This document shows positions 40,859-53,880 of a stretch of DNA of 64,000 nucleotides, in pieces. The stretch is from an uncultured virus (IMG/VR IMGVR_UViG_3300030372_002239). Its lineage: Duplodnaviria > Heunggongvirae > Uroviricota > Caudoviricetes. Positions within the stretch are counted from its first letter, which is position 1, and every line of letters starts with the position of its first letter. The position numbers and the translations under genes are program-made. Below the pieces are notes generated by a model that was not told the DNA's origin, did no database searches, and was given only the letters and a program-made list of their open reading frames with translations. Location of the stretch: positions 1-64,000 of IMG/VR virus record IMGVR_UViG_3300030372_002239. One strand, 5' to 3'.

Positions 40859-43217
40859 CTATCATTTCTTTCCAGTTATCCCCGATCATTGCTTCCGATC
40901 TCATGGAGAATCGTTCGCCACGGGGAGAAATTATTTCACGATTCAGATGCTTCATTGCTTCTTGGGCAACGAATTCTGAATGCTCAGGTGCGCATTGAAG
41001 CAGCACACTATCATGGTTGTTCTGGAGTACGTCAACTCCTAACTCTTGCAAATCTTGTCGGTTCTGTAGCTCGACAAATGCTAGGTTCGTAATACATCCG
41101 ACAGTCGATTGAGGCACAAATGCATACGCTTCCTTGTACATTGATTCATCAATGATGCCTGTGAAGTATCGGGGATAGCCAAACAAGTTTTTGAGCGTTC
41201 GTGTTTCCTTGAGTCGTTCAACAGTCTCGTTGTGCCATTGGTTTATCTCAGGGAACAACTTGTGATAAGTATTGAGGAATCGTTTAGCCTCCTTTGACTC
41301 AAGGGCGATTGCGCCCTGAGACTTCTGCAACATATTCGTGCGAAAGGTCGGAGCCTTCATGCCGTAGTTCGATGCGTGACAAACCATCTTGGCCATGAAG
41401 TAGTAGCGTTTATCGGCAGTCCAATTGTCGCTATCCTTAATTACACTATTCAGTTCATCCCAACCTTTGATGTCCTTGAGTTCATGGATGGGAGCTTCGC
41501 AAAATTCATTGATGCTTCTACCAAGTTCAGCAGACCAGACATCAGGAAACAAGCGCATGGCAACAAACACATGGGACTTGATGCCCTCAAGAAATAGTGT
41601 GCGGAAGTTGCCTTGTGTACATAGGTAGCCAACGATCATTGCCTCTGCTCCTGCTTGGTCAGCTTGCACAAGAACCTTACCTTCATCAGCAATGAACAGA
41701 TGTCGCAGCTTCTTTGGTATGTTCTGAATGTTCGTACCCCAACGACCGAGTAGCTTGCGACTTGCCAATCTGAATGTAGATGTGCCAGCCAAGTTGTATG
41801 AGGTCGTGATGCGATCAACCATTGGTACGTTGTGTAGACCATCGTAAGGATTGTACTTGAGTTGGCCTGACTCCTTGGCGATTGATCGGTACTTGAGAAT
41901 TATTGAAATCGCTGGAAGATCGTACTTGAGTCGATGCTGAAGCAGGGTCTTCTCGTTTGTTAAATCCTTCGCTGGTTTCTTGAGCTTCATTCGGTCATAC
42001 AAATAGACAGACACTTGCTTTGGGCTGTTTGGATTTAGATCGTGACCGACAAGGAGACTCAGCATTCTGCGAAGTTGATTCTTGTGTCGCTCGTTTCGCA
42101 TCAGAATCTTCTTCTTCTCTGCTGTATTGATGCGGAGTCCCTGACACATTGCAGTAAGATACGGCACTACCATTGAGTTAGCTTGTTCGATGGATTTAGT
42201 TGCACCCATCGTAACTGCAAGTTCGTCAATGGATGGTTTAATCAACGCCATCGTGAGTACGTCCTTGACGTTGTAATGGTAGAGTTGATCGAACTGTTCT
42301 GCGTTCTGCGGATTGTAGCAACCTTCGTTCTTGTGATAAGGTTGATCTGTGTAAAGTGATATGCAATGTCCGAGAGACTTCTCTATTTCAGGGAACAGCC
42401 GATGGTGCGCCAGCATTGTATCGTAGACTTTGCGAGGCGCAGGAATGCCATATCGGTATGCGACAACGAACAAGTCAAAGAGTGCGTTGTGTATGACTAC
42501 TGTGTTGTCTCTGAATGCAACAGCAAGTGCGCGTAAAATCTGATGAGTCTCGTCGTAATGGTAGTAGTTTATTCGCAACATTGGTACGCAGTAGCCTTTG
42601 CCGCCAAACGAGAATCCGAAACAAGTCATCTCAAGGCTAGGATTTGTCTCGATGTCAAAGAACATATCCTTGCCTTTAGTGTTTGTTAGTAAATCTATAA
42701 CTTCGGATGCTTTGGGATAGATGTCACTCTCGCCTTCGACGGGATTAGGCGGAGTCTTGAGATAACCGGCAGCTTTTGATACATCCCGTTGCATCCAGTA
42801 TCGCCAGTTGGATCGTTTGGTTTTGCCGTGTCTCTCGGTTTCGTCGTAATCGTACTCGGTTTCGTGTGCAAGCGGATTGAAGTATGCCTTGCGATCAATG
42901 GCATTTTGCGGAGCGAACGTAGCAATGTAGGTGCGTCCATGTACAATCCAAGGACAGCCACGTTGACCACCGAGTTTTGAGTTCTTGAAAGTTTTAAGAG
43001 CCTTCTCGCCCAACAACAAAATTACTTTTGTGTCGGGGAGAAAGCCTTCGCCCAAGGTATTGAGCAATCTGATGTCGCAAGATTGTCTCGGAATACCAAG
43101 GGCGTTTTGGAATAGATGACCAGCGTAGCCTGAGATTAGACTACCCTTGTCGAATCTACTTGGACTTTCGAGAATTACCGTTAGACCGCTGTACTTTAGA
43201 CTTGGTTTGTGTCTCAC
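40851..43217 (-). CDS. polA: Family A DNA polymerase (His762 type) with N-terminal UDG-like domain and 3'-5' exonuclease
   Basis: FDIET, HNALFD, DTML, motif A ADQAGAE, motif B AKMVCHASNYG, motif C NHDS; N-terminal GxAG...VILLLGEKA...TFAP. Confidence 0.9.
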   Translation of the reverse strand: MRHKPSLKYSGLTVILESPSRFDKGSLISGYAGHLFQNALGIPRQSCDIRLLNTLGEGFLPDTKVILLLGEKALKTFKNSKLGGQRGCPWIVHGRTYIATFAPQNAIDRKAYFNPLAHETEYDYDETERHGKTKRSNWRYWMQRDVSKAAGYLKTPPNPVEGESDIYPKASEVIDLLTNTKGKDMFFDIETNPSLEMTCFGFSFGGKGYCVPMLRINYYHYDETHQILRALAVAFRDNTVVIHNALFDLFVVAYRYGIPAPRKVYDTMLAHHRLFPEIEKSLGHCISLYTDQPYHKNEGCYNPQNAEQFDQLYHYNVKDVLTMALIKPSIDELAVTMGATKSIEQANSMVVPYLTAMCQGLRINTAEKKKILMRNERHKNQLRRMLSLLVGHDLNPNSPKQVSVYLYDRMKLKKPAKDLTNEKTLLQHRLKYDLPAISIILKYRSIAKESGQLKYNPYDGLHNVPMVDRITTSYNLAGTSTFRLASRKLLGRWGTNIQNIPKKLRHLFIADEGKVLVQADQAGAEAMIVGYLCTQGNFRTLFLEGIKSHVFVAMRLFPDVWSAELGRSINEFCEAPIHELKDIKGWDELNSVIKDSDNWTADKRYYFMAKMVCHASNYGMKAPTFRTNMLQKSQGAIALESKEAKRFLNTYHKLFPEINQWHNETVERLKETRTLKNLFGYPRYFTGIIDESMYKEAYAFVPQSTVGCITNLAFVELQNRQDLQELGVDVLQNNHDSVLLQCAPEHSEFVAQEAMKHLNREIISPRGERFSMRSEAMIGDNWKEMIDV

Positions 43218-43428
43218 GCGCCTTGAGTGCTTCTTGTTTGAGCTTGTCCTTGATTGAATCTTGTTTGATGTAATCTTGTAGCATTAGGATTGCATCATGG
43301 ATTCCCGATAGATAACCGTCTGCTAAAGCCTCGGCTTGCATCTCAGTTGTCTTGATTCGTAACCGTTCCAACGCTTGTGCATTGTCCTTGGTACGAATGT
43401 CATCAATTATGGTCGTTAATTCTTTCAC
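43156..43428 (-). CDS. Hypothetical protein
   Basis: Fills operon. Confidence 0.55.
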   Translation of the reverse strand: MKELTTIIDDIRTKDNAQALERLRIKTTEMQAEALADGYLSGIHDAILMLQDYIKQDSIKDKLKQEALKARETQTKSKVQRSNGNSRKSK

Positions 43429-43636
43429 AGTATTTTCTTTTAACGTAGTCAGGTGTTCCGTATCTTTTTCTTACTTCAGCAGTTCGCCGCTTCTTGTGCG
43501 GAAAGTCTACTTTGTAATCCATTGTGCGACTTTCGTGGTGGCCAACTTCGCTTGGCTTGAGTCCATGCCGTCGCGCAAATTTCTTAAATTTTCTATCAAG
43601 ATCATCTTTGTTTATTTCCAATTCGCGAATTTTCAT
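43403..43636 (-). CDS. Small basic protein, homologue of 4187..4435
   Basis: KFKKFARRHGLKPSEVGHHESRTM. Confidence 0.8.
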   Translation of the reverse strand: MKIRELEINKDDLDRKFKKFARRHGLKPSEVGHHESRTMDYKVDFPHKKRRTAEVRKRYGTPDYVKRKYCERINDHN

Positions 43637-43654
43637 TTAGTCTAGCTCCCGATG

Positions 43655-43682
43655 AAAAAGGGGGAGGTTTTACCCTCCCCCC
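43655..43682 (-). terminator. Rho-independent terminator after SSB-like gene
   Basis: GGGGGAGG stem followed by T5 on the minus strand. Confidence 0.75.
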
Positions 43683-43688
43683 ATGTGG

Positions 43689-44192
43689 TTACGCAAGATC
43701 GTGTTCGGGTGCTTTACTGATCAGTTCCCCAACTGAATACGAGTTGAAGGTGATAGGGTCGCCGGTAGACGGATCTACCATTGCCTCACCTTCCGCATTC
43801 TTCCTTACAACCTTCTCGGTCTTGATGGTTGCATAGGCAGCCTTGCCCTTGTAGATAGAACCATCCGGCTCGACAGTACCCCAAGGGTCGCTCTCGTCGG
43901 AACAGTTCAACTCGAAAGGCAAATCGAGAACACGATGAGTACGCTTGACGCGCAATGCCATCTTCTCGATAAACACGAGGTACTCACGGAATTGCAAACC
44001 AGCAATCCGCACATTTCCCAAGTCTGGATCTTCAATAGACTCAGGTGCAACGATTTCCCAAGTCAGGACAACCATAGGGTTGCCACTCTGTGACTGACGG
44101 GTTTCGGTATCGGCTACACGAATAGTGTAGTTGTTCGAAGGCAGAAACGGACGAGCGTTCTCCTTTACATCATTTAGGTTAATAGTAGGCAT
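43689..44192 (-). CDS. DUF669-like single-stranded DNA-binding protein
   Basis: LPxxxYxIRV...SQSGNPMVVLTWEI pattern; downstream of AAA_24 gene. Confidence 0.65.
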   Translation of the reverse strand: MPTINLNDVKENARPFLPSNNYTIRVADTETRQSQSGNPMVVLTWEIVAPESIEDPDLGNVRIAGLQFREYLVFIEKMALRVKRTHRVLDLPFELNCSDESDPWGTVEPDGSIYKGKAAYATIKTEKVVRKNAEGEAMVDPSTGDPITFNSYSVGELISKAPEHDLA

Positions 44193-44323
44193 TTTTACCA
44201 GTTATCCTCACTTCGTGTGAGAAAGTATCGACGGGCGATCAATGCAGGGACACATACTGGCTAACTGAGGAAAAACCAGTAAACCTGTCTGCATCTTAAT
44301 AGCAGTATGTACCCGTCTGAAAT

Positions 44324-44626
44324 TCATCCCGCAAAAAGATTCTTTTTGTCGGCTATACTTGTTCTTGTCCGAAAGATTCCATCGTACTTTGGAAATACTT
44401 CGTGAAACTTACGGGCATAGAACGCTTTGTAGTTATTGTTTAGTTTGAAATCTGTATCACTTGTTTCGATGAGAGTCTCCCATCTGATACGTTCAGCAAC
44501 CAACGCAACACTAAAGTTATCATATCCTTTATTGATTGCCTCAAACGTAAACCTCTTGAACAACTCCCACACATAAGGGTTGTCTGCATGAAACTTGTCG
44601 AACTTTTCTTGTAAATTGTTGTTCAT
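44324..44626 (-). CDS. Hypothetical phage protein
   Basis: FHADNPYVWELF...ERIRWE...FKLNNNYKAFYAR. Confidence 0.75.
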   Translation of the reverse strand: MNNNLQEKFDKFHADNPYVWELFKRFTFEAINKGYDNFSVALVAERIRWETLIETSDTDFKLNNNYKAFYARKFHEVFPKYDGIFRTRTSIADKKNLFAG

Positions 44627-44787
44627 AAGTCTTCTACGGTAATACCATGTTCGTTTTCTATTTTTTCTAGTTGATCTTCTAGTTGGTGGATTCTATTCCA
44701 CGCGAACTTTAAATGCTCATCTTTAAGTTCTATCACTTTTGCTTGGTCAACTACTTGATCAACAGCACTTATGTAATAGTCAGGCAT
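44623..44787 (-). CDS. Small hypothetical protein
   Basis: ATG-started part (MPDYY) overlapping both neighbours. Confidence 0.5.
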   Translation of the reverse strand: MPDYYISAVDQVVDQAKVIELKDEHLKFAWNRIHQLEDQLEKIENEHGITVEDL

Positions 44788-45424
44788 AGTATTCGTTACA
44801 AGACTTGATGACTTCGTTGAGATCGTTGGGTATGTAGAGATCATCGAACATACCAAGAGGAGTCTTCGCAGATGTCACTCCATCAGAGTTTGTCTGGAAA
44901 CAATAGTCGATTGAGTTCTCTCCCTTACGAACTTCTGTGAATAGAACCATCAACAGTTCCTTCTCGATGCAACCTTCGTGCTGCTTGCCTTGCACCTTGA
45001 TGCGTCGAGTATTGTACTCACCGCCAGTTGGCTGAGTGACACGCACGATCTCGTCGATTGCCGTGAATATGAAGATGGCTTTTTCATTTTTCACTTTGTC
45101 GAGTAGGTCGCGAATCTGTTTGTTGTAGTACGACCAGACATCGTAACCCTTGTACATCTTACCGGCGTAACTGGATAGTTGTTCGCAGTATTTGGTGAAG
45201 GATTCAAAGACAACAATATCTGAATTCTTGATTGCCTTTTCGATGGCAGGATTAACGTCAGGTATCTTGTCTACCGATATGATGTCGAACTTCTTTGCTT
45301 CTTTAAATGGGAAGCCTTTGCGTTCTAGGTCGATGATGGTTGTCTTGTCTGCTGGTAGATTACGCAGGGATGTTGATTTGCCTGTGCCACTACCGCCAAC
45401 TATTCCGATGATAGGTTTGTTCAT
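44780..45424 (-). CDS. AAA_24 / Sak4-like ATPase (recombination)
   Basis: GGSGTGKSTSLRNL, IIDLE, AKTPLGMF. Confidence 0.8.
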   Translation of the reverse strand: MNKPIIGIVGGSGTGKSTSLRNLPADKTTIIDLERKGFPFKEAKKFDIISVDKIPDVNPAIEKAIKNSDIVVFESFTKYCEQLSSYAGKMYKGYDVWSYYNKQIRDLLDKVKNEKAIFIFTAIDEIVRVTQPTGGEYNTRRIKVQGKQHEGCIEKELLMVLFTEVRKGENSIDYCFQTNSDGVTSAKTPLGMFDDLYIPNDLNEVIKSCNEYYA

Positions 45425-45810
45425 ATAATTGTAATCTCGATGTTGCGAGGTTTGGTTTGTTCTGTTGTTGGCCAAGTGTTGTCGAGAAGCATTTGGCCGA
45501 TCAATCCATAGTTCACTATGTCTTGAAAAGTATCAGCAAGTGATTCGTTGTTTGGTTCGCGGTTGTTCTCAAGTAGGTTCTTGAGTCTGAAAATTTTATC
45601 GACGAGCCGAGTCTTCAATCCAAGTAGTCCCTCGGATGAAATGTTCAATGGCCCGTAGTCCAATTGTTTCGCGTCAAGCAACTTAACACAATCGAGTGCG
45701 TTTAGAAATGCTTGATTGCCAGCAATTGTAATTAGTGAGATGTCAATGTTGGTTTGTTCACCGTCCATTGCGTTCATAGTCATTTTGGTTTCTCTCTCGA
45801 AACTATTCAT
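45421..45810 (-). CDS. DUF1599 / nucleotide-modification-associated domain 1-like protein
   Basis: KQLDYG...RLVDKIFRL...NESLADTFQDIVNY. Confidence 0.7.
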   Translation of the reverse strand: MNSFERETKMTMNAMDGEQTNIDISLITIAGNQAFLNALDCVKLLDAKQLDYGPLNISSEGLLGLKTRLVDKIFRLKNLLENNREPNNESLADTFQDIVNYGLIGQMLLDNTWPTTEQTKPRNIEITII

Positions 45811-46708
45811 TGAAGTTTAGTGGGTTATATTTTTTAGTGTAAAAGTCGTTCTCGATTACTGCTTCACCAAAGTCTCCAGCGTTGCAGATTCTAGTGAACT
45901 TGCACATTCCGAATTTGGTTTCGCAGCAGTTAAAATTAGGCAGAAAGTATTGTTTATCTTCCTTGATGTTCTTGGTAAGTAGCTCGACGAAGTTGACGAG
46001 AGTCTCAGTAAGATGCTGCTCAAAGTATGCGAGCTTCTGATTTGAGTAATCTAGGATTGCGCTTCGCTGAAACTTGTTGCGACCAGAGCGAGACAAAAAG
46101 ATGCCGTTGATAAGTGCTTGATAGTTTCTTTCGGGGAACAGCTTGCGCATCACCAAGGTATACAACATGAGTTGCGTAGACATTTCATATGAAGCCAAGT
46201 AACGGTCAACTGTTGTGACTGCCGTTGACTTGTGATCGCAGATAACATTCTGGCCAAAGTATGTACCAATGAAGTCAATTGTTCCGCAAAGAATGATGTC
46301 GATGAACCCGTTTGTGTAAAAGGGATAAGCAAACTTCATTTCAAGAAGCGGTTTACCTTCGTGCTTCTCTACCTTGAGTCCGTCTACGTCTGAGTAGTGA
46401 TCAAAGTATTGCGTGATACAGTTGGCGAGATGCCCTTGAGTGCGCCAGTCATTGACGGGAACGTGAATGTCTGGATTAGAAAAATGTGTTAACGCTTCAT
46501 TCATAGACTGAACCTTATCACCAGTTGCGTAATAAGATTCTAGTGCCTTGTGATATGCCGTGCCGTATTCCATCTTGTGATTCATGTAACTACTACGCAA
46601 ACCTCTTACAGTTGTATAGTAGAACTTGAGGGAACAGGCAGATTCTTTGTAGGCAGATGCGTCTATGCGAAGAATGTAGCGGTCTTCAGCTTTCTCTAGT
46701 TTAATCAA
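45803..46708 (-). CDS. PD-(D/E)XK (Cas4/RecB-like) exonuclease
   Basis: GTAYH, EMKF, GTIDF, DHKS, QLMLY and C-terminal cysteines. Confidence 0.85.
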   Translation of the reverse strand: MIKLEKAEDRYILRIDASAYKESACSLKFYYTTVRGLRSSYMNHKMEYGTAYHKALESYYATGDKVQSMNEALTHFSNPDIHVPVNDWRTQGHLANCITQYFDHYSDVDGLKVEKHEGKPLLEMKFAYPFYTNGFIDIILCGTIDFIGTYFGQNVICDHKSTAVTTVDRYLASYEMSTQLMLYTLVMRKLFPERNYQALINGIFLSRSGRNKFQRSAILDYSNQKLAYFEQHLTETLVNFVELLTKNIKEDKQYFLPNFNCCETKFGMCKFTRICNAGDFGEAVIENDFYTKKYNPLNFNE

Positions 46709-46865
46709 GTTTGATCTTTCCTCTAGTTTTCTTTTGTACTTTCAGTTCTTCTAAATCGTCCGGTCTTGAGATTTTTAAGTAAGGTGCTAGGTGTTCTTGC
46801 AACTTTGAGTCAGGCATTGCCTCTAGTTCCTCGACTGAAATCTCCAGCAGTTGTTCTATTGTCAT
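46701..46865 (-). CDS. Small hypothetical protein (54 aa, not in ORF track)
   Basis: Manual translation MTIEQLLEISVEELEAMPDSKLQEHLAPYLKISRP. Confidence 0.55.
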   Translation of the reverse strand: MTIEQLLEISVEELEAMPDSKLQEHLAPYLKISRPDDLEELKVQKKTRGKIKLD

Positions 46866-46944
46866 TCAAGTCCCGATAGAATTGTGCAGATTGTTGCGAA
46901 TAAAAAGTAGAGTAGTCCGAGTGCGCATAAGATGTCGAAGTAGA

Positions 46945-47457
46945 TCATTTCATTACGCGAACAGAAGTGTCGGTAATATCTACTTCTGAATCTTCATTGA
47001 CTAGATTGTATACGAATTCACGATCAGCTTCCGAAACAGAGACGTTACGCTCAAAGAGTTCTGTGTCCTTGGCAGTCTTGTACCAAGTTTCTAGTTCGTT
47101 CTTCCACGCAATAGAATCATTAAACTCGTAGTCTAACGCTTTGGATTTCAGCATATTTTGTACTGTGCCTTTGAAGTAGATGATGATGCCATCATCAGTC
47201 TTGCGTATGGCTACCTTGTTTCGGAGTAACGCATATTTTGCTTCGTCAAAGTTGTCTAGGATAAACTTGAATCCATCGTTGAACTTGACGTACAAAGTAT
47301 TTGCTGTGTATCCGGTTTGCTTGGCGTTGACGTAAACGTCTTGTCCAGTTTCGATTAACCTATCGAGTATTGGCTGTACTTGCTTGGCCGCATTAGGACT
47401 GTAAGTAGAGCGATTAGGTTTCGGTTTTTGTTCTATTGTAATGTTTTCGATTTGCAT
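46945..47457 (-). CDS. Hypothetical protein
   Basis: 170 aa ORF in replication operon. Confidence 0.7.
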   Translation of the reverse strand: MQIENITIEQKPKPNRSTYSPNAAKQVQPILDRLIETGQDVYVNAKQTGYTANTLYVKFNDGFKFILDNFDEAKYALLRNKVAIRKTDDGIIIYFKGTVQNMLKSKALDYEFNDSIAWKNELETWYKTAKDTELFERNVSVSEADREFVYNLVNEDSEVDITDTSVRVMK

Positions 47458-47834
47458 TGATCCATGTATTTAGCAGCAGTTTCTTTATTACCCTTTGCTA
47501 GTTCTGCTTGTGCCAGCATAAAGAGTTTCTTGGCTGAAAGTTCTTTAAGCGAAGGAGTCCACTTTACAGCTTCATCCTGCGAGAAAAGAATTCCATCCGG
47601 TTTCTCACGATATAATTCATCCTTGAATCTCTCCAAGTCTGATGTCGGTAGGTTCTTTGGTAAACCATTCTTAACCTTGGCACGAATGCGTAACTGAGCT
47701 TGTTGATTTATAAGGGCGATTGTTGTTTTCTCACCGTAAGCCTCAACAACTTCATCAATAGACTCAAAGACCGGAGTATAAAACCCGAAACCCTTGAAAT
47801 CCCCGTCGATAAACTGTTCTTTTTTATAGGTCAT
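47433..47834 (-). CDS. Hypothetical protein, first gene after sigma54-type promoter
   Basis: ATG at 47834. Confidence 0.7.
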   Translation of the reverse strand: MTYKKEQFIDGDFKGFGFYTPVFESIDEVVEAYGEKTTIALINQQAQLRIRAKVKNGLPKNLPTSDLERFKDELYREKPDGILFSQDEAVKWTPSLKELSAKKLFMLAQAELAKGNKETAAKYMDQCKSKTLQ

Positions 47835-47862
47835 TTTCAAAAAATATGACAGTTAATATATA

Positions 47863-47878
47863 AGCAACCTTCGTGCCA
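47863..47878 (-). promoter_or_regulatory. Sigma54 (-24/-12) promoter for replication operon
   Basis: TGGCACGAAGGTTGCT, exact GG-N10-GC spacing, intergenic, sense orientation. Confidence 0.88.
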
Positions 47879-47900: not shown

Positions 47901-48608
47901 TTAATAGATGATTAATTTACCCAATGTCTTGTAACGTGCAAGTATAGATTGTAGTTCTCTGTAGTTGCCGGTGAGTTTGGTTTGATCTAGGATTTGCAGC
48001 ATCAATCCTTCGGGGTCTTCGACTTCTTGTTTCTTGAGGTAGAGAGTTATGTCGTCTGTTCTATCTCGGAGTGGTGATGTCTTGATGATGAAGGTTGATA
48101 TGCGGTGATAGAGATCGAGTCTGAAATTTCCTACCTCGACTTCTTTGCGTAAGTCTTTGTTGGTTGAGAACACGAAGCGACAAGTTGCATTGTGTTCCTC
48201 GGCTTCGCCTATGCGACTATACTTCTTGTGTTGAATGAAGCGTAGTAGCTTGGGTTGTAGGTGTAAGGGAAGTTCTCCGATCTCATCTAGGAATAACGTG
48301 CCTTTGTGCGCTCGCTGAACGAAACCAGTTGTGTCTCTGGTCGCTCCCGTGAATGAGCCTTTGAGGTGTCCGTAAAGAAGCGATTCAAACAAGTCTTCTT
48401 GGAGTGTAGTTACGTTTACAGGAACGAAGTTATTTTGTATTTTGGCGTTCGATGCTGACTGCCTTTCTCCATGTAAGATTTGAGCGATAGTCTCCTTACC
48501 TGTGCCAGACTCCCCCATCACTAGGACGGGGGAATCGTGGCTGGACAGAATGTGTGCATGGTAGATTTGCTCTAGCATGAACTTGTCTTCTGTGATTAGT
48601 TCTTCCAT
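47901..48608 (-). CDS. Stand-alone sigma54 activator (bEBP AAA+ domain only)
   Basis: GESGTGKE, VPVN, ESLLYGHLKGSFTGA, LFLDEIGE, QPKLLR, STN, FRLDLYHR, PLRDR, GNYREL; no receiver domain or HTH. Confidence 0.95.
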   Translation of the reverse strand: MEELITEDKFMLEQIYHAHILSSHDSPVLVMGESGTGKETIAQILHGERQSASNAKIQNNFVPVNVTTLQEDLFESLLYGHLKGSFTGATRDTTGFVQRAHKGTLFLDEIGELPLHLQPKLLRFIQHKKYSRIGEAEEHNATCRFVFSTNKDLRKEVEVGNFRLDLYHRISTFIIKTSPLRDRTDDITLYLKKQEVEDPEGLMLQILDQTKLTGNYRELQSILARYKTLGKLIIY

Positions 48609-48790
48609 GTAACTTCTACGCCTTCTGCGTCTAATATGTCATCCCACTTCCAATCTTGTGGGTGTTCGTGTACTTTAGGATTCCATTTGAACTTGAGATG
48701 TACTTCAACTGTATCTAACTCAGGCTCATCGTGCTGCGGAGGGTCTTGGTTCTCTCGCTGGCCCCATGCATCAAGCGACATTTGATTCAT
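48596..48790 (-). CDS. Hypothetical early protein
   Basis: Overlaps both neighbours. Confidence 0.55.
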   Translation of the reverse strand: MNQMSLDAWGQRENQDPPQHDEPELDTVEVHLKFKWNPKVHEHPQDWKWDDILDAEGVEVTWKN

Positions 48791-49541
48791 CTTGTAAGAA
48801 TTTGAGTACGCTACGATTGGTTCTTGCCACTAGCTCAAAACTTTTATCCATCTCTGGTGTCAGGTTTTGCGTTACCGCATTGTATAGATTGTATACGTTA
48901 CGGTCTTTATCTTGCGAGTATGTAGGATTGCGCCATATATCCAAGATGTCCTTGCCTCGCCTTTCACCAATCTTCTTACCCTCGACCAGCTTCTCGATGA
49001 TTGATTCGCCCTTTTGTTGAGTGATCTTAAAACCGTGCAAGACTCTGTAGCCTTCAACTGATGCGTCAAACTCACGCTTGGCTGAGTTGATTGAATCGTT
49101 GATATAGTCCAAGTCTAGGTTCATTGAATGTCTACCTGACTGCTTGGTATTCATGCATGGTGAAGTCATACCGTTAGTGCAAACAAGACGTAATGCCCCT
49201 GCATCTATTGGTATACCAGAAGAACCATCGTATGAATTGCGTAACGTGACGCGCATTCCGATGATGTCTCCCTTTGCTACTTCAGCACGTTGTTCTTTGA
49301 AGTCATAGACTGCATAAAGTCTTGCCCCATTGTTGGGACAATAGATTTTCCTCTGAAACTCACCGAGTTTCAGACAGGATTCAACTCTGTCTATTACTTC
49401 TTTATGATGAACTATCTTGTACTTATCTGAAACAAGAGCAAGATGCTCACCTGTGTCCTCGCGAAAGTTCTCGCGATGTCCTTCGATTACTTGTCCTCGT
49501 ATGTTTAATACGGGACGACTCTTTACATTGAACTCATACAT
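48771..49541 (-). CDS. DUF932-family protein
   Basis: VSDKYKIVHH, NSYDGS, LRLVCTNGM, YNLYNAVT. Confidence 0.85.
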   Translation of the reverse strand: MYEFNVKSRPVLNIRGQVIEGHRENFREDTGEHLALVSDKYKIVHHKEVIDRVESCLKLGEFQRKIYCPNNGARLYAVYDFKEQRAEVAKGDIIGMRVTLRNSYDGSSGIPIDAGALRLVCTNGMTSPCMNTKQSGRHSMNLDLDYINDSINSAKREFDASVEGYRVLHGFKITQQKGESIIEKLVEGKKIGERRGKDILDIWRNPTYSQDKDRNVYNLYNAVTQNLTPEMDKSFELVARTNRSVLKFLQDESNVA

Positions 49542-49759
49542 TGTTCGATTAGTTTTACTTGGTTTTGTGTTAATGCTTTATCGAATTGATAAAACAAAAA
49601 TTTGTTATCACTTGTACAACATTCTGCTGTACCTGTCTGATAGATTTCGTCGATTGTTTGGTCTTCATCGGATATTACAATGAGTCCGATTTCATTTTGT
49701 AGCATATCAACGTCACTTCGCTCAAGATGATTTACTTGCCAGATGTAAGTGTGTGCCAT
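49523..49759 (-). CDS. Hypothetical early protein
   Basis: Fills gap between neighbours. Confidence 0.45.
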   Translation of the reverse strand: MAHTYIWQVNHLERSDVDMLQNEIGLIVISDEDQTIDEIYQTGTAECCTSDNKFLFYQFDKALTQNQVKLIEQCMSSM

Positions 49760-50265
49760 GTTGGTTTCTCTCTTCGTGTCCATCGTGCGAATGGTTTGTC
49801 TAGTTGTATGTACAGCCTGTATTTTTCTACTATTGCTAGGTCATCAAAGTTTGGTTGCTTGCGACAGTTCATGTCCTTCGCTATGGCTACAGCGAACTCG
49901 GTTCTTGATCCGATAGGTGCGTAAGAATCTTTTAGGTTCTCGTAGCACCAAGCAATGAAGTCGAGAGTGTAATGGTCTTTACCCCAGCGGTATCGACGTT
50001 CTTCACCCATCTCAATGGCATGACTTATCAGCCAGCTCATGTTGTCGCGAGTCTTGAATGTCCATTGTGTGCATGGATGGTAGCGATAGCTATGTACTCT
50101 CGGACGGCCTAGTGCATTGCGAGGACAGTCGTCTGCTGCGAGTCTGGATAAAGGAAAACCGTTGGCCAGCATTTGTGCTGACTCAACGATCATCTTGTTT
50201 ATATGTTTGTCGCAGAGATTACGCGCTGCAACAATTGGGTTATCATCAGTTACAAAGATGTTCAT
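49732..50265 (-). CDS. Pyrimidine-dimer DNA glycosylase (DenV-like) family protein
   Basis: MNIF...CDKHINKMIVESAQML...HPCTQW...YRLY. Confidence 0.8.
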   Translation of the reverse strand: MNIFVTDDNPIVAARNLCDKHINKMIVESAQMLANGFPLSRLAADDCPRNALGRPRVHSYRYHPCTQWTFKTRDNMSWLISHAIEMGEERRYRWGKDHYTLDFIAWCYENLKDSYAPIGSRTEFAVAIAKDMNCRKQPNFDDLAIVEKYRLYIQLDKPFARWTRREKPTWHTLTSGK

Positions 50266-50437
50266 CGTGACAAGCCTCGTTAAACTTGAGTATCTTTTGT
50301 CCACAACTCTCACATTCTTTATGTTGCAGACCTGTTCCAACACAATCAGTACATTTTTGACATAATTCTGCTACGATTAAGTAGCCTTTGCCTTCGCATA
50401 ATTCGCAAAGATCAACAACTCTTTTTGTGTAGCTCAT
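50246..50437 (-). CDS. Small Cys-rich zinc-finger protein
   Basis: CxxCxGxG repeats. Confidence 0.6.
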   Translation of the reverse strand: MSYTKRVVDLCELCEGKGYLIVAELCQKCTDCVGTGLQHKECESCGQKILKFNEACHDEHLCN

Positions 50438-50561
50438 CGTTTCTTTGGTTTTGTACGGTTCGTTGATTTAGTTCTGCTTGAATTGGCAGGACGGCTACTT
50501 GTGTGGGTAAGTTTACCAGTTTTCATCGACCGCTCTTGCCTTCGACTATAAGGTTTGTATT

Positions 50562-50744
50562 TCATCGTTTTCGTGTCTTTGCTTTGATGATGCAACGTGT
50601 CAATTTTCCGTTCCAGCTATCTTGGCGTAAGGATTGATTAGGATTTTCAGTAACGCTCGGACTATCCAGTTTAGTCCAGTTTCTTGCTCTGTCTGGTATG
50701 TCTACCAGTTCGACGTTTCCGTTAACTATTGTTCTTGCTTTCAT
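50562..50744 (-). CDS. Hypothetical early protein
   Basis: ORF in leftward early block. Confidence 0.5.
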   Translation of the reverse strand: MKARTIVNGNVELVDIPDRARNWTKLDSPSVTENPNQSLRQDSWNGKLTRCIIKAKTRKR

Positions 50745-51036
50745 TAAACTTTAAGTAGTTTGGTGATCTATGAAATAGGTTGTGTACCCAATTTGCTGAC
50801 TGTCTGTCTAGGTAATGTTCGTTACCTTGGATAGAGTAGTCTGGCGGGAATAGTATCTCCGTGTCTGGTAGGTCGCAATGGACGAGATGTTCTTTGTGGT
50901 ATTCATGCCAGTCAGGATGTTTTTGTAGATTCTCAGGCCCGTATCCATACAAGTTGCATTCATGCAACGCGCTGATAGCCATTAGACGGGAACGGCTCGG
51001 ATGTTTGAGTGCTACGGTCAAAGATGTATTGTTCAT
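50722..51036 (-). CDS. Hypothetical early protein
   Basis: ORF in leftward early block. Confidence 0.55.
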   Translation of the reverse strand: MNNTSLTVALKHPSRSRLMAISALHECNLYGYGPENLQKHPDWHEYHKEHLVHCDLPDTEILFPPDYSIQGNEHYLDRQSANWVHNLFHRSPNYLKFNESKNNS

Positions 51037-51304
51037 GTTTCTTTTGGTATAAGCATTTCTGGATGTTTAACGTGTTTAGTAATCCGTTCAGTCTCTCGCG
51101 AGTTGTCATTGTGGGCCAGCCACAAAGTGAAATGTGGAGCGAGTTTACTGTCTGTTCTGCGATGCAATGCCCATGCAAGTAGAGTTGCGTGACATTGTCG
51201 TCAGGGAATCGCAGGTCTTTTTTGACTTCGACGCGAGTGTTGTCACGACTGAAGTTCTTGCCTTGTTTGAATGCGCGTGCAGCGTCTTGTGTTATTTTTC
51301 TCAT
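50960..51304 (-). CDS. Hypothetical early protein
   Basis: MRKIT...LYLHGHCIA...CGWPTMTTRERLNGLL. Confidence 0.7.
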   Translation of the reverse strand: MRKITQDAARAFKQGKNFSRDNTRVEVKKDLRFPDDNVTQLYLHGHCIAEQTVNSLHISLCGWPTMTTRERLNGLLNTLNIQKCLYQKKHEQYIFDRSTQTSEPFPSNGYQRVA

Positions 51305-51678
51305 TTGTTGTTTTTGTAGTTTTTGTAGTCTTTATTTAAGGGGTGATTGATTACCCAGTCGTACAGTTCTTTGTTGTCGTTGTAGAGGTCGGATAGAATG
51401 CCAGAGTAAAGTGTCTTTACTGGCGAACTGATCTTGATCTTGAACTTATTGCTGAATGTATATTCGGGTTGTGACTCAGATGCCTTGCTAGAGAAGCCGC
51501 CTTGGCATCTGCGAATGCTGGTTGATATTTTACCATCGCCCCAAATGTCTTTGCCTAGTGCGGCTTGTAGTGAGAGAGCGCGACTTAATTCTCTCATAAG
51601 AGACTCGCGTTCTTCGCTTTGTTTACTTATCTTTTGGGATAGTGCTTCCATTTTAGTTATGGATTCAGACATTTTCAT
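51301..51678 (-). CDS. Hypothetical early protein
   Basis: Coupled to neighbours. Confidence 0.6.
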   Translation of the reverse strand: MKMSESITKMEALSQKISKQSEERESLMRELSRALSLQAALGKDIWGDGKISTSIRRCQGGFSSKASESQPEYTFSNKFKIKISSPVKTLYSGILSDLYNDNKELYDWVINHPLNKDYKNYKNNK

Positions 51679-51943
51679 GTAGAGTATTTGTTAAAGTTGT
51701 GTAAGTTGTGAGAGAGTAGCGTTCACCTGCGAGATTAGTTAAGCAGGATTCGCAAGGTTCTTTTGAGAAGTCGTCTGTCTTGTCTCCGGTCATTAAGTAA
51801 CCATGCTTGGCTAGTTTATCGAGACCGTTATTTATTTCGGTGTATCTTGTTTGGGCCTCGTCTCCTTGGTAGTGGTAGTCGAGGGATGAAGCATCGCCGG
51901 TCGCGTTAAGCGTGTGGCAGTCTTGGCAGATTGTGAATTTCAT
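51665..51943 (-). CDS. Hypothetical early protein with two CxxC motifs
   Basis: CQDC and FSKEPCESCLTNLAGER. Confidence 0.7.
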   Translation of the reverse strand: MKFTICQDCHTLNATGDASSLDYHYQGDEAQTRYTEINNGLDKLAKHGYLMTGDKTDDFSKEPCESCLTNLAGERYSLTTYTTLTNTLHENV

Positions 51944-51947
51944 GTGA

Positions 51948-51973
51948 GAAAAAAGGGGGGATTGCTCCCCCCA
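51948..51973 (-). terminator. Rho-independent terminator
   Basis: G6/C6 stem followed by T tract on the minus strand. Confidence 0.7.
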
Positions 51974-51979
51974 TTGAAG

Positions 51980-52570
51980 TTAGGCGAATAGTGCATCTGC
52001 CTCGACATCGAGTGCATCAATCTTGGCTTGGATTGTCGCTGCCTTTTCAGCAGATTTTTCCTTGCGATGTTTAGCCTCAAGGGTGCGACGTTCCGCGAAG
52101 ATTTCTTGCATCCGTTGGGCGCGAGTCTCGGAGGCTTCTAGCTTCTTGGTGAGTGCTGCTTTTCCGTCTGACTTTGTACGCTCCTTGAATGCATCCCCGT
52201 CAAGTGCTTGCGCAATGTTGGAGAGTTTCTCATCGTCGGTGTAAGAGTCTGTTCGCTTGCCGTCTATTGATTTCTTTTGGGCGGTTTTGTATTTGCCGTT
52301 ATTGAGACGGTAGAAACAAGCGTCTTTTATCCATGAGTCGGCATCGTTGTCTAGGACTCCAGCTTCGTTTAGTGCCGTGATCCAATCGCGGATGTCGTTC
52401 AAGTCGTTGGTAGACTCGGAGCCTGTCTCATGCGCCCAGTATTTGAAGGGGCCATCTTGTCCCTTGGTTGATTCAAGGAGAGTCAAGTCAAGGTTCGCGA
52501 GTGTTTCGTCGTTGTTAACCAAGGCGAGTTGGGCCTTGCCGTTTTCGTTTGTTATGATTTTGGTTTTCAT
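51980..52570 (-). CDS. Hypothetical early protein with its own promoter and terminator
   Basis: ATG at 52570; coiled-coil C-terminus. Confidence 0.7.
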   Translation of the reverse strand: MKTKIITNENGKAQLALVNNDETLANLDLTLLESTKGQDGPFKYWAHETGSESTNDLNDIRDWITALNEAGVLDNDADSWIKDACFYRLNNGKYKTAQKKSIDGKRTDSYTDDEKLSNIAQALDGDAFKERTKSDGKAALTKKLEASETRAQRMQEIFAERRTLEAKHRKEKSAEKAATIQAKIDALDVEADALFA

Positions 52571-52590
52571 AATAGCCCGAAGGCGAGACA

Positions 52591-52618
52591 AGACTAGCAG
52601 AGGGGGGAGGGGTGTCAA
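52591..52618 (-). promoter_or_regulatory. Sigma70-type early promoter
   Basis: TTGACA-N13-TG-N-TAGTCT. Confidence 0.7.
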
Positions 52619-52680
52619 CCCTTATATGAGATTTAATGAAAAAAATATTTTTTGTATATATTGATATGCTCATGGTTGTA

Positions 52681-52834
52681 TTGATTATTAAATTTATTTA
52701 TTTAGATTAATCAACGGGTGGTATGCCCCCTTCTAGTAGTCTATATATATAAAGATATCTATATTTTTTTTCTATTCTGTCAACGTGTAAAGGGGGGTAG
52801 TTGATTAATCTAAATAAATAAATTTAATAATCAA
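52681..52834. repeat. Perfect 35-bp AT-rich inverted repeat with 84-bp spacer, candidate origin
   Basis: 52681..52715 is the exact reverse complement of 52800..52834. Confidence 0.85.
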
Positions 52835-52895
52835 CCTTTGCCCCGTTTATTTACATTAACTAGATAAGAAAAAACCCCCTTGCGGGGGTTGTCGT

Positions 52896-53144
52896 TTATT
52901 TTTCCGGTTTGTTGAATTTCTCCTCTTCAACGTAGGCAACGTCGGCCTTGTCGAGTTTACCTTCAAGGTAACGAATTCGCATTCTGTATTCGTTGATTTC
53001 GACTTCGTGCTTTTCGTGTACTTCGTCCCACGCTTTTTGGATTTCATCCATTTCCCATTTAGTTGGGGCGATGTCTTCAATCAGTCGTTTGATGCCGTCA
53101 GCAATTTCGACTTTGTTCTTTAGATTATTGATGTAGTAATTCAT
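52896..53144 (-). CDS. Hypothetical early protein
   Basis: ORF followed by a terminator-like hairpin near 52867..52890. Confidence 0.6.
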   Translation of the reverse strand: MNYYINNLKNKVEIADGIKRLIEDIAPTKWEMDEIQKAWDEVHEKHEVEINEYRMRIRYLEGKLDKADVAYVEEEKFNKPEK

Positions 53145-53171
53145 AAGAAAAAAGGGGCTTGCACCCTCATG

Positions 53172-53375
53172 TTATGCTTCAATTGATACGCTGATGTCTC
53201 CGTCGTTTACCATGTCGCGAACCGTATCGCGTATTTCTGCGCGCCGGTCGTCTTCATTTGGTTGTGAACTGATTTCATCAACTTTTTTCTCAATTGCCTT
53301 TTGTATTATCATGGTCATTTCCGTGACAAAGTAATCGGCAAGCCCTTCAATTTGTTCTTTAGTGTTTTTGTTCAT
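53172..53375 (-). CDS. Hypothetical early protein
   Basis: ATG at 53375 just downstream of predicted promoter. Confidence 0.6.
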   Translation of the reverse strand: MNKNTKEQIEGLADYFVTEMTMIIQKAIEKKVDEISSQPNEDDRRAEIRDTVRDMVNDGDISVSIEA

Positions 53376-53398
53376 ATTTAGTGCCATGCGGCAAAGAC

Positions 53399-53426
53399 AG
53401 GTTGACATAAACAACAAATTTGTCAA
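53399..53426 (-). promoter_or_regulatory. Sigma70-type early promoter (TTGACA present on both strands)
   Basis: TTGACA-N13-TG-N-CAACCT. Confidence 0.55.
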
Positions 53427-53483
53427 CACTTTATGAAAGAAAAAATCTCATGTAAAATGCATTTATGGGTTGCGTTTCTCTGG

Positions 53484-53579
53484 ACAGCCCGAAAGGGTGG
53501 AGCGAAGCTCCCTCGGGCTGTACTAACTAATACCCGCAAGGGACTCGGCAGAGGTGACTGAAAGGAACAATTAGTTAGT
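53484..53579. ncRNA. Candidate structured non-coding RNA (two multi-stem domains)
   Basis: 9-bp and 10-bp closing stems with internal tetraloop hairpins in an intergenic region. Confidence 0.45.
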
Positions 53580-53826
53580 TATATTTTTTATTTTCGTCTC
53601 AGTAGAAAAGGCAGGGGCCGAAGCCCCCACCAATGTTATGACCTGTTACGTTTAAGCAACTTCTGGACTGCTCTGCGCATGATGTCTGTTTGGCGTGGAT
53701 TGCGTGGAAACAGAAACTTGCGCCCTGCGTATTTCATCATTAGACGTTTTCTCATAATAACCCGAAGGCAGGGACAGAGTATCAACCATCCATAACAAGT
53801 CAAGATAAAAATAAAAAATAAATTGG

Positions 53827-53854
53827 TTGACACAATTCTTGATTCTGGTACTTT
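53827..53854 (+). promoter_or_regulatory. Sigma70-type promoter
   Basis: TTGACA-N13-TG-N-TACTTT. Confidence 0.7.
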
Positions 53855-53880
53855 GGGGGTGCGGTAATACCGCAAATGTT

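What the first reader, a model, noticed from the sequence alone, without database searches (positions are those of the whole stretch)
47901..48608. Phage-encoded minimal sigma54 activator: bare bEBP AAA+ domain with no sensor domain and no HTH
Seen: a 235 aa ORF with the bEBP motifs in order: Walker A GESGTGKE, switch Asn (VPVN), sigma54-contact loop GSFTGA (F and T of GAFTGA retained), Walker B LFLDEIGE, STN, arginine-finger segment FRLDLYHR and sensor II GNYREL. Walker A lies about 30 residues from the start and the ORF ends 16 residues after sensor II, so there is no room for a regulatory or DNA-binding domain. It is the last gene of the early block and overlaps its upstream neighbour. Established: sigma54-RNAP cannot open promoters without a bEBP; isolated AAA+ domains such as PspF(1-275) activate constitutively from solution; H. 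pylori FlgR and Chlamydia CtcC work without an HTH. Inference: a constitutive, enhancer-independent activator that acts as this phage's transcription switch. It might also activate host sigma54 promoters. I do not know of a described phage that does this, but I could not check the literature.
Basis: partly seen in the sequence, partly recalled or inferred. Interest (0 to 1): 0.95.

Follow-up and report, generated by a model that had tools for sequence, protein, structure and literature searches.

The report
Phage-encoded minimal sigma-54 activator switch
An uncultured, probably marine phage carries a stripped-down activator of the host's sigma-54 RNA polymerase and places matching sigma-54 promoters in front of its replication and virion genes, a way of timing phage gene expression that I could not find described.

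Summary
The 235-aa ORF at 47901..48608(-) is real. It is a complete sigma-54-activator AAA+ domain and nothing more (Pfam PF00158 E 1.2e-53; AF2 model TM 0.85 to the FleQ AAA+ domain).

New here: three exact TGGCACG-N5-TGC sites (0.14 expected) lie in the ~42-kb phage that carries the gene. All are intergenic and point at downstream genes.
- One starts 22 nt after the activator's stop codon, ahead of the replication genes.
- One heads the terminase block.
- One precedes a 467-aa ORF, capsid by position only.

In 67 of 80 viral-contig relatives (40-100% identity) the same element lies within 120 nt after the gene, against 2 of 79 bacterial loci. GG and GC stay fixed while the spacer varies. Viral versions are 225-336 aa without an HTH. 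The nearest bacterial ones (35-46% identity) are multidomain. No phage sigma-54 gene was found.

Best reading (~0.78): the last early gene makes an unregulated, enhancer-independent activator that switches host sigma-54 polymerase onto the phage's middle and late promoters. Everything functional is inferred, and the host is unknown.

Ten literature searches found no described equivalent. This scan noted a similar case on other DNA (e1-6112602). The 65.6-kb record looks chimeric: bases 1-19,544 belong to another phage.

The parts
47901..48608 (-). Gene for a 235-aa single-domain sigma-54 activator (bEBP AAA+ core, GSFTGA loop, no sensor, no HTH)
   Evidence: ORF. PF00158 E 1.2e-53. PDB sequence hits to FleQ, NtrC1 and PspF. 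AF2 pLDDT 88.8 and Foldseek TM 0.85 to the FleQ AAA+ domain. Conserved catalytic residues in A1.
48596..48790 (-). 64-aa ORF directly upstream that overlaps the activator's start by 13 nt (possible translational coupling); no family hit
   Evidence: No PHROG or Pfam family.
47864..47878 (-). P1: sigma-54-type -24/-12 element TGGCACGAAGGTTGC. It starts 22 nt after the activator's stop codon. Predicted start site near 47852; first ATG at 47834.
   Evidence: Exact match. Sequence read. The same position is kept in 67 of 80 viral relatives.
39442..47840 (-). Block downstream of P1 (proposed middle genes): two unknown ORFs, exonuclease, DUF1599-like protein, Sak4 annealing protein, weak SSB-like protein, DNA polymerase, primase/helicase
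   Evidence: PHROG hits, Pfam hits, ORF map.
54315..54329 (+). P2: TGGCACGAACTCTGC, 92 nt upstream of the 1052-aa ORF that heads the plus-strand block. A plus-strand terminator-like hairpin lies at 54158-54179 just before it.
   Evidence: Kept at the same position in G001, G002 and G003, and as TGGCACACTTCCAGC in G004.
54421..62916 (+). Block downstream of P2: 1052-aa low-complexity ORF, 118-aa ORF, SNase-like nuclease, large terminase, 582-aa ORF (portal by position only), 370-aa ORF
62922..62936 (+). P3: TGGCACGAAGTTTGC, 88 nt upstream of the 467-aa ORF
   Evidence: Exact match; sequence. Kept in G001, G002 and G003, and as TGGCAGACTTCTTGC in G004.
63024..64000 (+). Start of a 467-aa ORF (ends at 64427 in the full record). 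No family hit; capsid protein only by its position.
48771..53984 (-). Proposed early region upstream of the activator: small ORFs (DUF932, Pyr_excise-like DNA-binding protein, Kyano_Gp96-like protein and others) with minus-strand terminator-like hairpins at 53631, 53168, 52890 and 51972
   Evidence: The sigma-70-like scan was not enriched (11 found against 14.7 expected), so the early promoters are not located.

Best explanation
The gene encodes a free-standing sigma-54 activator, the AAA+ motor of a bacterial enhancer-binding protein without its sensor or DNA-binding domain. The proposed sequence of events is as follows.

1. Host sigma-70 polymerase transcribes the leftward early region. Its last gene is this activator (inferred).
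2. With no regulatory domain, the protein is active as soon as enough has accumulated to form rings (inferred; modelled on PspF(1-275), recalled, and on DctD250).
3. With no HTH, it reaches host sigma-54 holoenzyme from solution. That holoenzyme is already parked in closed complexes on three phage promoters (P1 47878-47864, P2 54315-54329, P3 62922-62936).
4. Through its GSFTGA loop and ATP hydrolysis it opens these promoters (inferred from family mechanism).
5. This turns on the replication/recombination block (P1), the terminase block (P2) and the 467-aa ORF with the genes behind it (P3).

The phage brings the activator and the promoters; the host must supply sigma-54. Host sigma-54 promoters are probably fired as a side effect.

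Shown here: the domain content, the conserved catalytic and contact residues, the promoter-like sites, their placement, and their conservation across a large group of viral contigs.

Not shown: ATPase activity, sigma-54 dependence, timing, and the host.
For: Protein:
- It is a complete bEBP AAA+ core and nothing else.
- In 30 relatives, Walker A G32/G35/G37/K38/E39, the loop residues G84/T87/G88/A89, Walker B D108/E109, R163, R169, N215 and R217 are invariant.
- 57 of 63 distinct viral sequences keep G[AS][FY]TGA. GSFTGA also occurs in 16 of 80 bacterial multidomain bEBPs, so it is a natural variant.

Promoters in the record:
- The canonical TGGCAC-N5-TTGC occurs exactly twice. The simulated mean is 0.17, and 13 of 1000 simulations reach 2.
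- TGGCACG-N5-TGC occurs three times. The simulated mean is 0.14, and 0 of 1000 simulations reach 3.
- All three sites are intergenic, are co-oriented with a gene 24-92 nt downstream, and lie in the activator-bearing phage. None lies in bases 1-24,000.

Comparative evidence:
- TGGCA[CT]-N5-[TC]TGC occurs 94 times in 81 loci (962,596 bases, one locus being the window's own). Thirty Markov simulations gave a mean of 7.6 and a maximum of 15.
- 67 of 80 viral loci have TGGCA[CT]-N6-TGC within 120 nt after the activator's stop, in 32 distinct sequence versions. Only 2 of 79 bacterial loci do.
- Positions the search did not impose follow the textbook consensus (recalled): T before TGG 0.69, G after CAC 0.67, T after GC 0.87.
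- P1, P2 and P3 are kept in position in G001-G003, and as GG/GC-preserving variants in G004.
- Ten near-complete relatives hold 48 pattern hits, against 3 for the reversed-pattern control.
- Of 31 sites in six records, 25 are intergenic although only 8-11% of each record is intergenic. Nineteen lie within 150 nt upstream of a co-oriented ORF.

Dependence on the host:
- No Sigma54_DBD in this record or in 10 relatives, and no Sigma54_AID in this record.
- No RNA polymerase family appeared among the ORFs scanned.

Precedent:
- DctD250, an AAA+-only construct, activates heterologous sigma-54 promoters without an enhancer, 150-fold and 16-fold in reporters (PMC3844500, passages read).
Against: - There is no experimental or transcript evidence of any kind.
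- The host is unknown, so it is not shown that it has rpoN.
- With up to 2 mismatches the canonical pattern is not enriched in the window (65 found against 64.3 expected). The case rests on the exact sites and their placement.
- 13 of 80 viral loci lack the site within 120 nt after the gene.
- 6 of 63 distinct viral proteins depart from G[AS][FY]TGA.
- The branch that unites all viral sequences has weak support (SH-aLRT 38, quick tree).
- Activation from solution was about ten-fold weaker than enhancer-bound NtrC for DctD250.
- Sigma-54 is a low-abundance sigma factor in the bacteria where it has been measured (recalled). Both points make it uncertain that a phage could drive high-level virion gene expression this way.
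- No terminator-like hairpin separates the activator gene from P1, so read-through may also express the replication genes.
- The sigma-70 scan did not locate early promoters.
Confidence: 0.78

Rival explanations
1. The activator does drive the phage's sigma-54 promoters, but not from solution. It is brought to them by a partner: a phage DNA-binding protein, or a mixed ring with a host enhancer-binding protein, as recalled for FleT with FleQ in Cereibacter sphaeroides. A partner could also hold it in check, as PspA does with PspF.
For: - Solution activation is about ten-fold less efficient than enhancer-bound activation.
- The gene is translationally linked to an unassigned 64-aa ORF.
- More distant viral versions carry N-terminal extensions of 33-105 aa of unknown role.
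Against: - No shared upstream element is seen among the three promoter regions beyond an A-rich run next to the -24 box.
- At P1 the upstream DNA is the activator's own coding sequence.
- No partner has been identified.
Confidence: 0.12
2. The protein's main job is to reprogram the host. It switches on the host's whole sigma-54 regulon (nitrogen uptake, motility, envelope stress, RNA repair), and the phage sites are secondary.
For: An AAA+-only activator is promiscuous on heterologous sigma-54 promoters (PMC3844500). Phage early genes often remodel the host (general knowledge).
Against: This does not explain why the sites sit in front of the phage's own replication and terminase blocks. It does not explain why the gene-then-promoter arrangement is kept in 67 of 80 viral loci, or why 25 of 31 sites are intergenic.
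Confidence: 0.06
3. The protein is an inhibitor. It poisons host bEBP rings or soaks up sigma-54, for example to block a sigma-54-controlled stress or defence response.
For: Truncated AAA+ subunits can in principle co-assemble with full-length ones (inference only).
Against: Every residue class needed for ATP binding, hydrolysis, inter-subunit sensing and sigma-54 contact is conserved. An inhibitor would not need all of these. Cognate promoters are conserved on the phage.
Confidence: 0.02
4. The gene is a recently captured, decaying fragment of a host regulator, or an assembly artefact, with no role in the phage.
For: The record itself looks chimeric.
Against: - The gene lies inside the part shared with four 42.8-45.5-kb relatives.
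- 292 viral-contig stretches encode relatives.
- The nearest bacterial genome hits are only 35-46% identical and multidomain.
- The motifs are conserved.
Confidence: 0.02

Closest known systems
Engineered AAA+-only activators: DctD250 (residues 141-390 of S. meliloti DctD) and PspF(1-275)
   Same: Only the central AAA+ domain is present. For DctD250, constitutive, promiscuous, enhancer-free activation of Esigma54 from solution is documented (PMC3844500, passages read). PspF(1-275) structures are among the sequence and fold hits. Its activity from solution is recalled.
   Different: Those are laboratory truncations of cellular regulators. This is a natural gene of 235 aa, carried by a phage, with its own promoters on the same genome.
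Natural bEBPs lacking one or both accessory domains: FlgR (H. pylori) and CtcC (Chlamydia), which have no HTH; PspF, which has no sensor; FleT (Cereibacter sphaeroides), central domain only. All recalled, none tested here.
   Same: They show that sigma-54 activators can work without an enhancer-binding domain or without a sensor.
   Different: All are chromosomal and control host regulons. FlgR and CtcC keep a receiver domain. PspF keeps its HTH and is held by PspA. FleT works with FleQ.
Pseudomonas phage YuA (Yuavirus)
   Same: [quoted passage not shown]
   Different: The YuA record has no PF00158 match and no hit to TGGCAY-N6-TGC. It therefore carries no activator of its own and no comparable set of sites.
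Htm (Gp204) of Mosigvirus AV110
   Same: A phage early protein with a bEBP-like AAA+ fold and no C-terminal DNA-binding domain. It changes the expression of more than 700 host genes (bioRxiv 10.64898/2026.10.06.757011, abstract and passages read).
   Different: According to its authors, Htm lacks the GAFTGA loop and has an altered Walker B. It has an extra N-terminal domain, and no phage sigma-54 promoters are reported. The protein here keeps every sigma-54-activator signature.
Other phage ways of redirecting host RNA polymerase: T4 AsiA/MotA and gp55/gp33/gp45, SPO1 gp28, lambda Q (recalled)
   Same: An early phage product retargets host polymerase to later phage promoters. T4 late transcription is likewise enhancer-like and activator-dependent.
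   Different: Those supply or remodel sigma-70-family factors or antiterminate. Here the phage would use the host's sigma-54 unchanged and supply only the ATPase.
   Same: An 81-kb uncultured phage with its own bEBP gene and four sigma-54-like sites before replication and other operons (AI note; not checked here).
   Different: By that note, its sites lack a base found in textbook promoters, and a duplicated enhancer was proposed. Here the sites are canonical and the protein has no DNA-binding domain.

Membership tests
Sigma-54 activator AAA+ domain (Pfam PF00158, bEBP central domain) | Profile match above the curated cut-off over the whole domain | tested here: met
   E 1.2e-53, 181.6 bits against a cut-off of 20.2; profile positions 2-167 of 168.
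Sigma-54 activator AAA+ domain (Pfam PF00158, bEBP central domain) | Walker A, Walker B, arginine fingers and sensor II for ATP binding and hydrolysis | tested here: met
   GESGTGKE, LFLDEIGE, FRLDLYHR and GNYREL are present. The key residues are invariant in 30 relatives. FRxDLxxR occurs in 62 of 63 viral sequences.
Sigma-54 activator AAA+ domain (Pfam PF00158, bEBP central domain) | GAFTGA loop (L1) that contacts sigma-54 region I | tested here: met
   The loop is GSFTGA at residues 84-89, with F and T kept. G84, T87, G88 and A89 are invariant in A1. GSFTGA is also found in 16 of 80 bacterial bEBPs. Actual contact with sigma-54 was not tested.
Sigma-54 activator AAA+ domain (Pfam PF00158, bEBP central domain) | bEBP-type AAA+ fold | tested here: met
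   AF2 pLDDT 88.8. Foldseek top hits are the FleQ, NtrC1, FlrC, LuxO and PspF AAA+ domains, TM 0.78-0.86 normalised by the query.
Sigma-54 activator AAA+ domain (Pfam PF00158, bEBP central domain) | ATP-dependent opening of Esigma54 closed complexes | not testable with these tools
   Needs ATPase and in vitro transcription assays.
Classical enhancer-binding protein (NtrC/NifA architecture: sensor + AAA+ + HTH) | C-terminal HTH that binds an upstream enhancer | tested here: not met
   Only 16 residues follow sensor II. The model is fully covered by central domains. Viral relatives extend at most 18 aa past the query's end. Bacterial ones mostly extend 65-163 aa; eight extend only 8-16 aa, seven of them Bacteroidota.
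Classical enhancer-binding protein (NtrC/NifA architecture: sensor + AAA+ + HTH) | N-terminal regulatory (receiver, GAF, PAS or V4R) domain | tested here: not met
   Walker A starts at residue 32 and no other Pfam domain is found. Most bacterial relatives carry 120-800 aa before the AAA+ domain; a few carry less.
Sigma-54-dependent (-24/-12) promoter | GG and GC ten bases apart within TGGCAC-N5-TTGC, upstream of and co-oriented with a gene | tested here: met
   Two exact canonical sites and a third with TCTGC. All are intergenic and lie 24-92 nt before an ORF. The consensus itself is recalled, not taken from a call.
Sigma-54-dependent (-24/-12) promoter | Conservation of the GG/GC core while the spacer and flanks drift | tested here: met
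   32 distinct versions across 67 loci keep TGGCA[CT] and TGC while the spacer varies. Free positions follow the consensus.
Sigma-54-dependent (-24/-12) promoter | Transcription start about 12 nt after the GC that depends on rpoN and an activator | not testable with these tools
   No RNA data were available. Needs reporters or 5'-end mapping.

The most novel reading that the evidence does not exclude
A large, long-standing lineage of tailed phages (42-56 kb, some records with terminal repeats) has made the host's sigma-54 polymerase its private middle and late transcription channel. Each phage carries a minimal, domain-less activator as the last early gene, a sigma-54 promoter immediately after it, and further sigma-54 promoters before the replication and virion blocks. 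The activator would be a concentration-timed switch that needs no enhancer. It could keep phage genes running even if sigma-70 transcription is shut off. This would be a class of phage transcription control not yet described, and a natural set of compact, orthogonal sigma-54 activators.
Probability: 0.65. Interest if true: 0.88.

Novelty: new variant of a known kind. Interest (0 to 1): 0.82.

Why it matters
Phages are known to take over host transcription with their own polymerases, their own sigma factors, sigma-70 appropriators or antiterminators. A phage that supplies only the ATPase activator and borrows sigma-54 unchanged would add a further strategy.

It would also show that the AAA+-only activator, so far mainly a laboratory construct, is used in nature to run a whole genome programme without enhancers.

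It makes several questions directly testable:
- How efficient is activation from solution in vivo?
- Can activator concentration alone time gene expression?
- Does infection fire the host sigma-54 regulon?

The family (292 viral-contig hits) would give synthetic biology a panel of small natural activators with matched promoters. A requirement for host rpoN would also be a usable clue for predicting hosts.

Tried and rejected
- Megablast of 40000-60000 against 50,697 phage records: no match.
- tblastn of the protein against the same records: 65 records, all below 60% identity. The 40 listed lie under full-length host-type regulators (glnG, atoC, prpR, zraR, rtcR) or in short unannotated fragments. 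No cultured phage counterpart was recognised.
- tblastn of the DNA polymerase found only relatives at 22-25% identity, so there is no cultured relative and no host clue.
- Terminase homologues carried no organism names. tRNA scan: none. The host stays unknown.
- Sequencing runs: no RNA holder was listed.
- Sigma-70-like promoter scan of 46500-55000: 11 found against 14.7 expected. The early promoters were not located.
- Search for a shared upstream enhancer at P1-P3: nothing beyond an A-rich run by the -24 box.
- PF00940 (T7-type polymerase) in the record: no match, but the tool's controls did not ring either, so this blank says nothing.
- Earlier findings by sequence and by place: nothing.
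- Ceyssens 2008 (YuA) is not held. I relied on the citing paper and on my own search of the YuA record.
- Literature searches found no paper describing a phage-encoded sigma-54 activator acting on phage sigma-54 promoters. Subscription journals and unread supplements may hold one.
- Complex prediction was not used. The host sigma-54 is unknown, and ring formation would pass merely by likeness to solved structures.
- The careful tree did not finish within the time limit. The quick tree is reported.
Full report
**Observation.** The ORF at 47901..48608 on the minus strand is real: ATG start, 235 aa.
- Walker A GESGTGKE at 32-39
- VPVN at 62-65
- GSFTGA at 84-89
- Walker B LFLDEIGE at 105-112
- STN at 147-149
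- FRLDLYHR at 162-169
- GNYREL at 214-219, followed by 16 residues

Pfam's Sigma54_activat covers residues 5-175 at E 1.2e-53, 181.6 bits against a cut-off of 20.2. The best solved relatives by sequence are the AAA+ domains of FleQ, NtrC1, LuxO and PspF, with E down to 1.9e-43. An AlphaFold2 model built on 30 relatives (pLDDT 88.8, pTM 0.83) is matched along its whole length by those same central domains; the best is 6jdl, TM 0.85 normalised by the query. The protein is therefore the bare motor domain, with no room for a sensor or an HTH. Its start overlaps the upstream 64-aa ORF by 13 nt.

**Setting.** The record is a 65,640-base IMG/VR virus contig. Two phages seem to be joined in it.
- Bases 1 to about 24,000 have about 50% G+C. 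They carry their own family-A DNA polymerase, terminase and SU10-type capsid protein.
- The rest has about 43% G+C and carries a second DNA polymerase, a primase/helicase, Sak4, an exonuclease and a second terminase.
- Four relatives of 42.8-45.5 kb, with CheckV completeness of 94-100%, are collinear with the window from about 23,400 onward. One of them (G001) matches from 19,545. None matches bases 1-19,544.
- The record's last 750 bases are an 83-94% identical copy of 19,545-20,290.

I therefore treat about 24,000-65,640 as the phage that owns the activator, and the left end as a probable mis-join through a shared tail-fibre cassette.

**The promoters.** The canonical sigma-54 element TGGCAC-N5-TTGC (consensus recalled) occurs exactly twice in the record: at 47878-47864(-) and at 62922-62936(+). 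A third site, 54315-54329(+), differs only in having TCTGC. Against 1000 first-order Markov simulations of the record:
- The canonical pattern has a mean of 0.17, and 13 of 1000 simulations reach 2.
- TGGCACG-N5-TGC has a mean of 0.14, and none of 1000 reaches 3.

With up to two mismatches there is no enrichment (65 against 64.3 expected). The argument therefore rests on the exact sites and where they lie.

All three are intergenic and point at a gene 24-92 nt away.
- **P1** begins 22 nt after the activator's stop codon. It precedes the exonuclease, Sak4, DNA polymerase and primase block.
- **P2** heads the plus-strand block that contains the terminase.
- **P3** precedes a 467-aa ORF that sits where a capsid gene would.

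None of the sites lies in the foreign left end.

**Relatives.**
- Among 8000 scored candidates of similar length, the 32 closest proteins (59-100% identity) are 186-243 aa and carry only AAA+ domains. Some come from the Tara source.
- A profile-guided scan of IMG/VR found 292 stretches encoding relatives among 409 pattern hits, and 80 loci were kept.
- In those 80 loci the protein is 225-336 aa, leaving aside three copies cut by contig ends and one mis-called start. It ends at most 18 residues beyond the query's end.
They are 346-1114 aa. Most carry 120-800 residues before the AAA+ domain and 65-163 after it. Seven Bacteroidota proteins lack the C-terminal part.
- In a quick maximum-likelihood tree of 143 distinct rows, all 63 viral rows lie on one side of one branch. 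Duplicates among the 80 viral loci were dropped, and all 80 genome rows were kept. Support for that branch is weak (SH-aLRT 38). The window's clade (23 rows) and its sister clade (23 rows) are each supported at 99.
- Walker A, Walker B, both arginines, sensor II and G, T, G, A of the contact loop are invariant in 30 aligned relatives.
- 57 of 63 distinct viral sequences keep G[AS][FY]TGA. GSFTGA also occurs in 16 of 80 bacterial bEBPs.

**Promoters in the relatives.**
- TGGCA[CT]-N5-[TC]TGC occurs 94 times in the 81 loci then held (962,596 bases). Simulations gave a mean of 7.6 and a maximum of 15.
- In 67 of 80 viral loci, TGGCA[CT]-N6-TGC lies within 120 nt after the activator's stop codon on the same strand, in 32 distinct sequence versions. 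The same test finds 2 of 79 bacterial loci.
- The spacer and flanks differ between clades while GG and GC stay put.
- Positions that the search left free reproduce the textbook consensus: T before TGG 0.69, G after CAC 0.67, T after GC 0.87.
- P1, P2 and P3 are kept in position in G001-G003, which are 72-95% identical in DNA. In G004 they survive as GG/GC-preserving variants.
- Ten near-complete relatives, three of them with terminal repeats, hold 48 hits against 3 for the reversed-pattern control.
- Of 31 sites in six records, 25 fall in the 8-11% of sequence that my crude ORF call leaves intergenic. Nineteen lie within 150 nt upstream of a co-oriented ORF.
- No sigma-54 DNA-binding domain is encoded in this record or in ten relatives. 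No activator-interacting domain is encoded in this record.

**Mechanism proposed.** Host sigma-70 polymerase reads the leftward early region. This region has small ORFs and four terminator-like hairpins, and its last gene is the activator. Having no regulatory domain, the protein should be active once it is abundant enough to form rings. Having no HTH, it should reach sigma-54 holoenzyme from solution. ATP hydrolysis would then open P1, P2 and P3 and start the replication and virion programmes.

The engineered AAA+-only DctD250 does exactly this on heterologous promoters without an enhancer: 150-fold and 16-fold induction in reporters, though about ten-fold below enhancer-bound NtrC (PMC3844500, passages read). 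The same promiscuity predicts that host sigma-54 genes fire during infection.

Every functional step here is inferred. What is shown is the anatomy and its conservation.

**Doubts.**
- The host is unknown, and no cultured relative exists in the phage collection.
- 13 of 80 viral loci lack the adjacent site, and a few proteins have degenerate loops.
- Solution activation is inefficient, and sigma-54 is scarce in the bacteria where it has been measured (recalled). High-level virion gene expression by this route needs proof.
- A tethering or restraining partner cannot be excluded. Candidates are the 64-aa neighbour, or the N-terminal extensions in distant relatives.
- No hairpin separates the activator gene from P1, so read-through may contribute to expression of the replication genes.

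**Comparison with what is known.** By sequence, fold and motifs the protein is a member of the sigma-54-activator AAA+ family. It fails the two features that make a classical enhancer-binding protein: the sensor and the HTH.

- It works like DctD250 or PspF(1-275).
- Natural partly stripped relatives (FlgR, CtcC, PspF, FleT; recalled) are chromosomal and control host genes.
- Phage YuA is reported to use a sigma-54-like promoter (PMC10914365, passages read). Its record has no PF00158 match and no hit to the site pattern.
- Htm of phage AV110 has a bEBP-like fold but, by its authors' account, lacks the GAFTGA loop.

Ten full-text searches found no description of a phage-encoded activator acting on phage sigma-54 promoters.

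**Verdict.** I class it as a new variant of a known kind: known machinery in a new carrier, with a new role and a minimal form. Interest is 0.82. Confidence in the mechanism is about 0.78.

Noticed in passing
window 1-24000 and record end 64889-65640: The record looks chimeric. Bases 1-19,544 (about 50% G+C; own DNA polymerase A, terminase and SU10-type capsid) match none of four 42.8-45.5-kb relatives. The record's last 750 bases repeat 19,545-20,290 at 83-94% identity. CheckV's '100% complete' is therefore misleading.
   Followed up: partly
window 19453-24582: The tail-fibre cassette (Laminin_G_3 protein, Peptidase_S74 chaperone protein and two small ORFs) has the G+C of the left-hand phage, yet matches relative G001 at 69-86%. 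The two phages seem to share a host-recognition module, and perhaps a host.
   Followed up: partly
window 32643-38705 (+): A 2020-aa ORF in the presumed tail region has no PHROG or Pfam hit at all.
   Followed up: no
window 54421-57579 (+): The first gene behind promoter P2 is a 1052-aa ORF rich in Pro, Asp, Glu and Lys, with long low-complexity stretches and no family hit. This is an odd thing to find ahead of the terminase.
   Followed up: no
window 62947-63002 (+): The predicted leader behind P3 has direct repeats: ACGCTTCTAC twice, and three copies of a 17-nt unit, one of which contains a second TGGCACG without a -12 box. Possibly a leader structure or a binding site.
   Followed up: no
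L047, L049, L052, L060, L062, L067 and others (viral contigs of 48-56 kb): More distant viral activators (40-47% identity) carry N-terminal extensions of 33-105 aa that were not assigned to any domain here. Their genomes hold 6-8 sigma-54-type sites each.
   Followed up: partly
L095, L104, L105, L112, L118, L128, L151 (Bacteroidota genomes): Seven Bacteroidota bEBPs of 383-389 aa have an N-terminal domain of about 140 aa but only 8-13 residues after the AAA+ core. They are chromosomal HTH-less activators and form one well-supported clade.
   Followed up: no
(protein lists): Contig lengths of 51,019, 51,209 and 51,092 appear both for second-tier activator homologues and for terminase homologues of this phage. 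This suggests that the activator travels with one terminase lineage. I did not check that these are the same contigs.
   Followed up: no
literature, PMC6596326: A Vibrio anguillarum mutant resistant to phage CHOED carried a 67-bp rpoN deletion, which the authors explain by loss of the flagellum (passages read). It may be worth asking whether any vibriophage needs sigma-54 for transcription rather than for adsorption.
   Followed up: no
(representative search): Several top-scoring proteins of 640-1027 aa match the query in two or three separate stretches (for example P0121 and P0122). These are tandem sigma-54-activator AAA+ domains in one chain.
   Followed up: no
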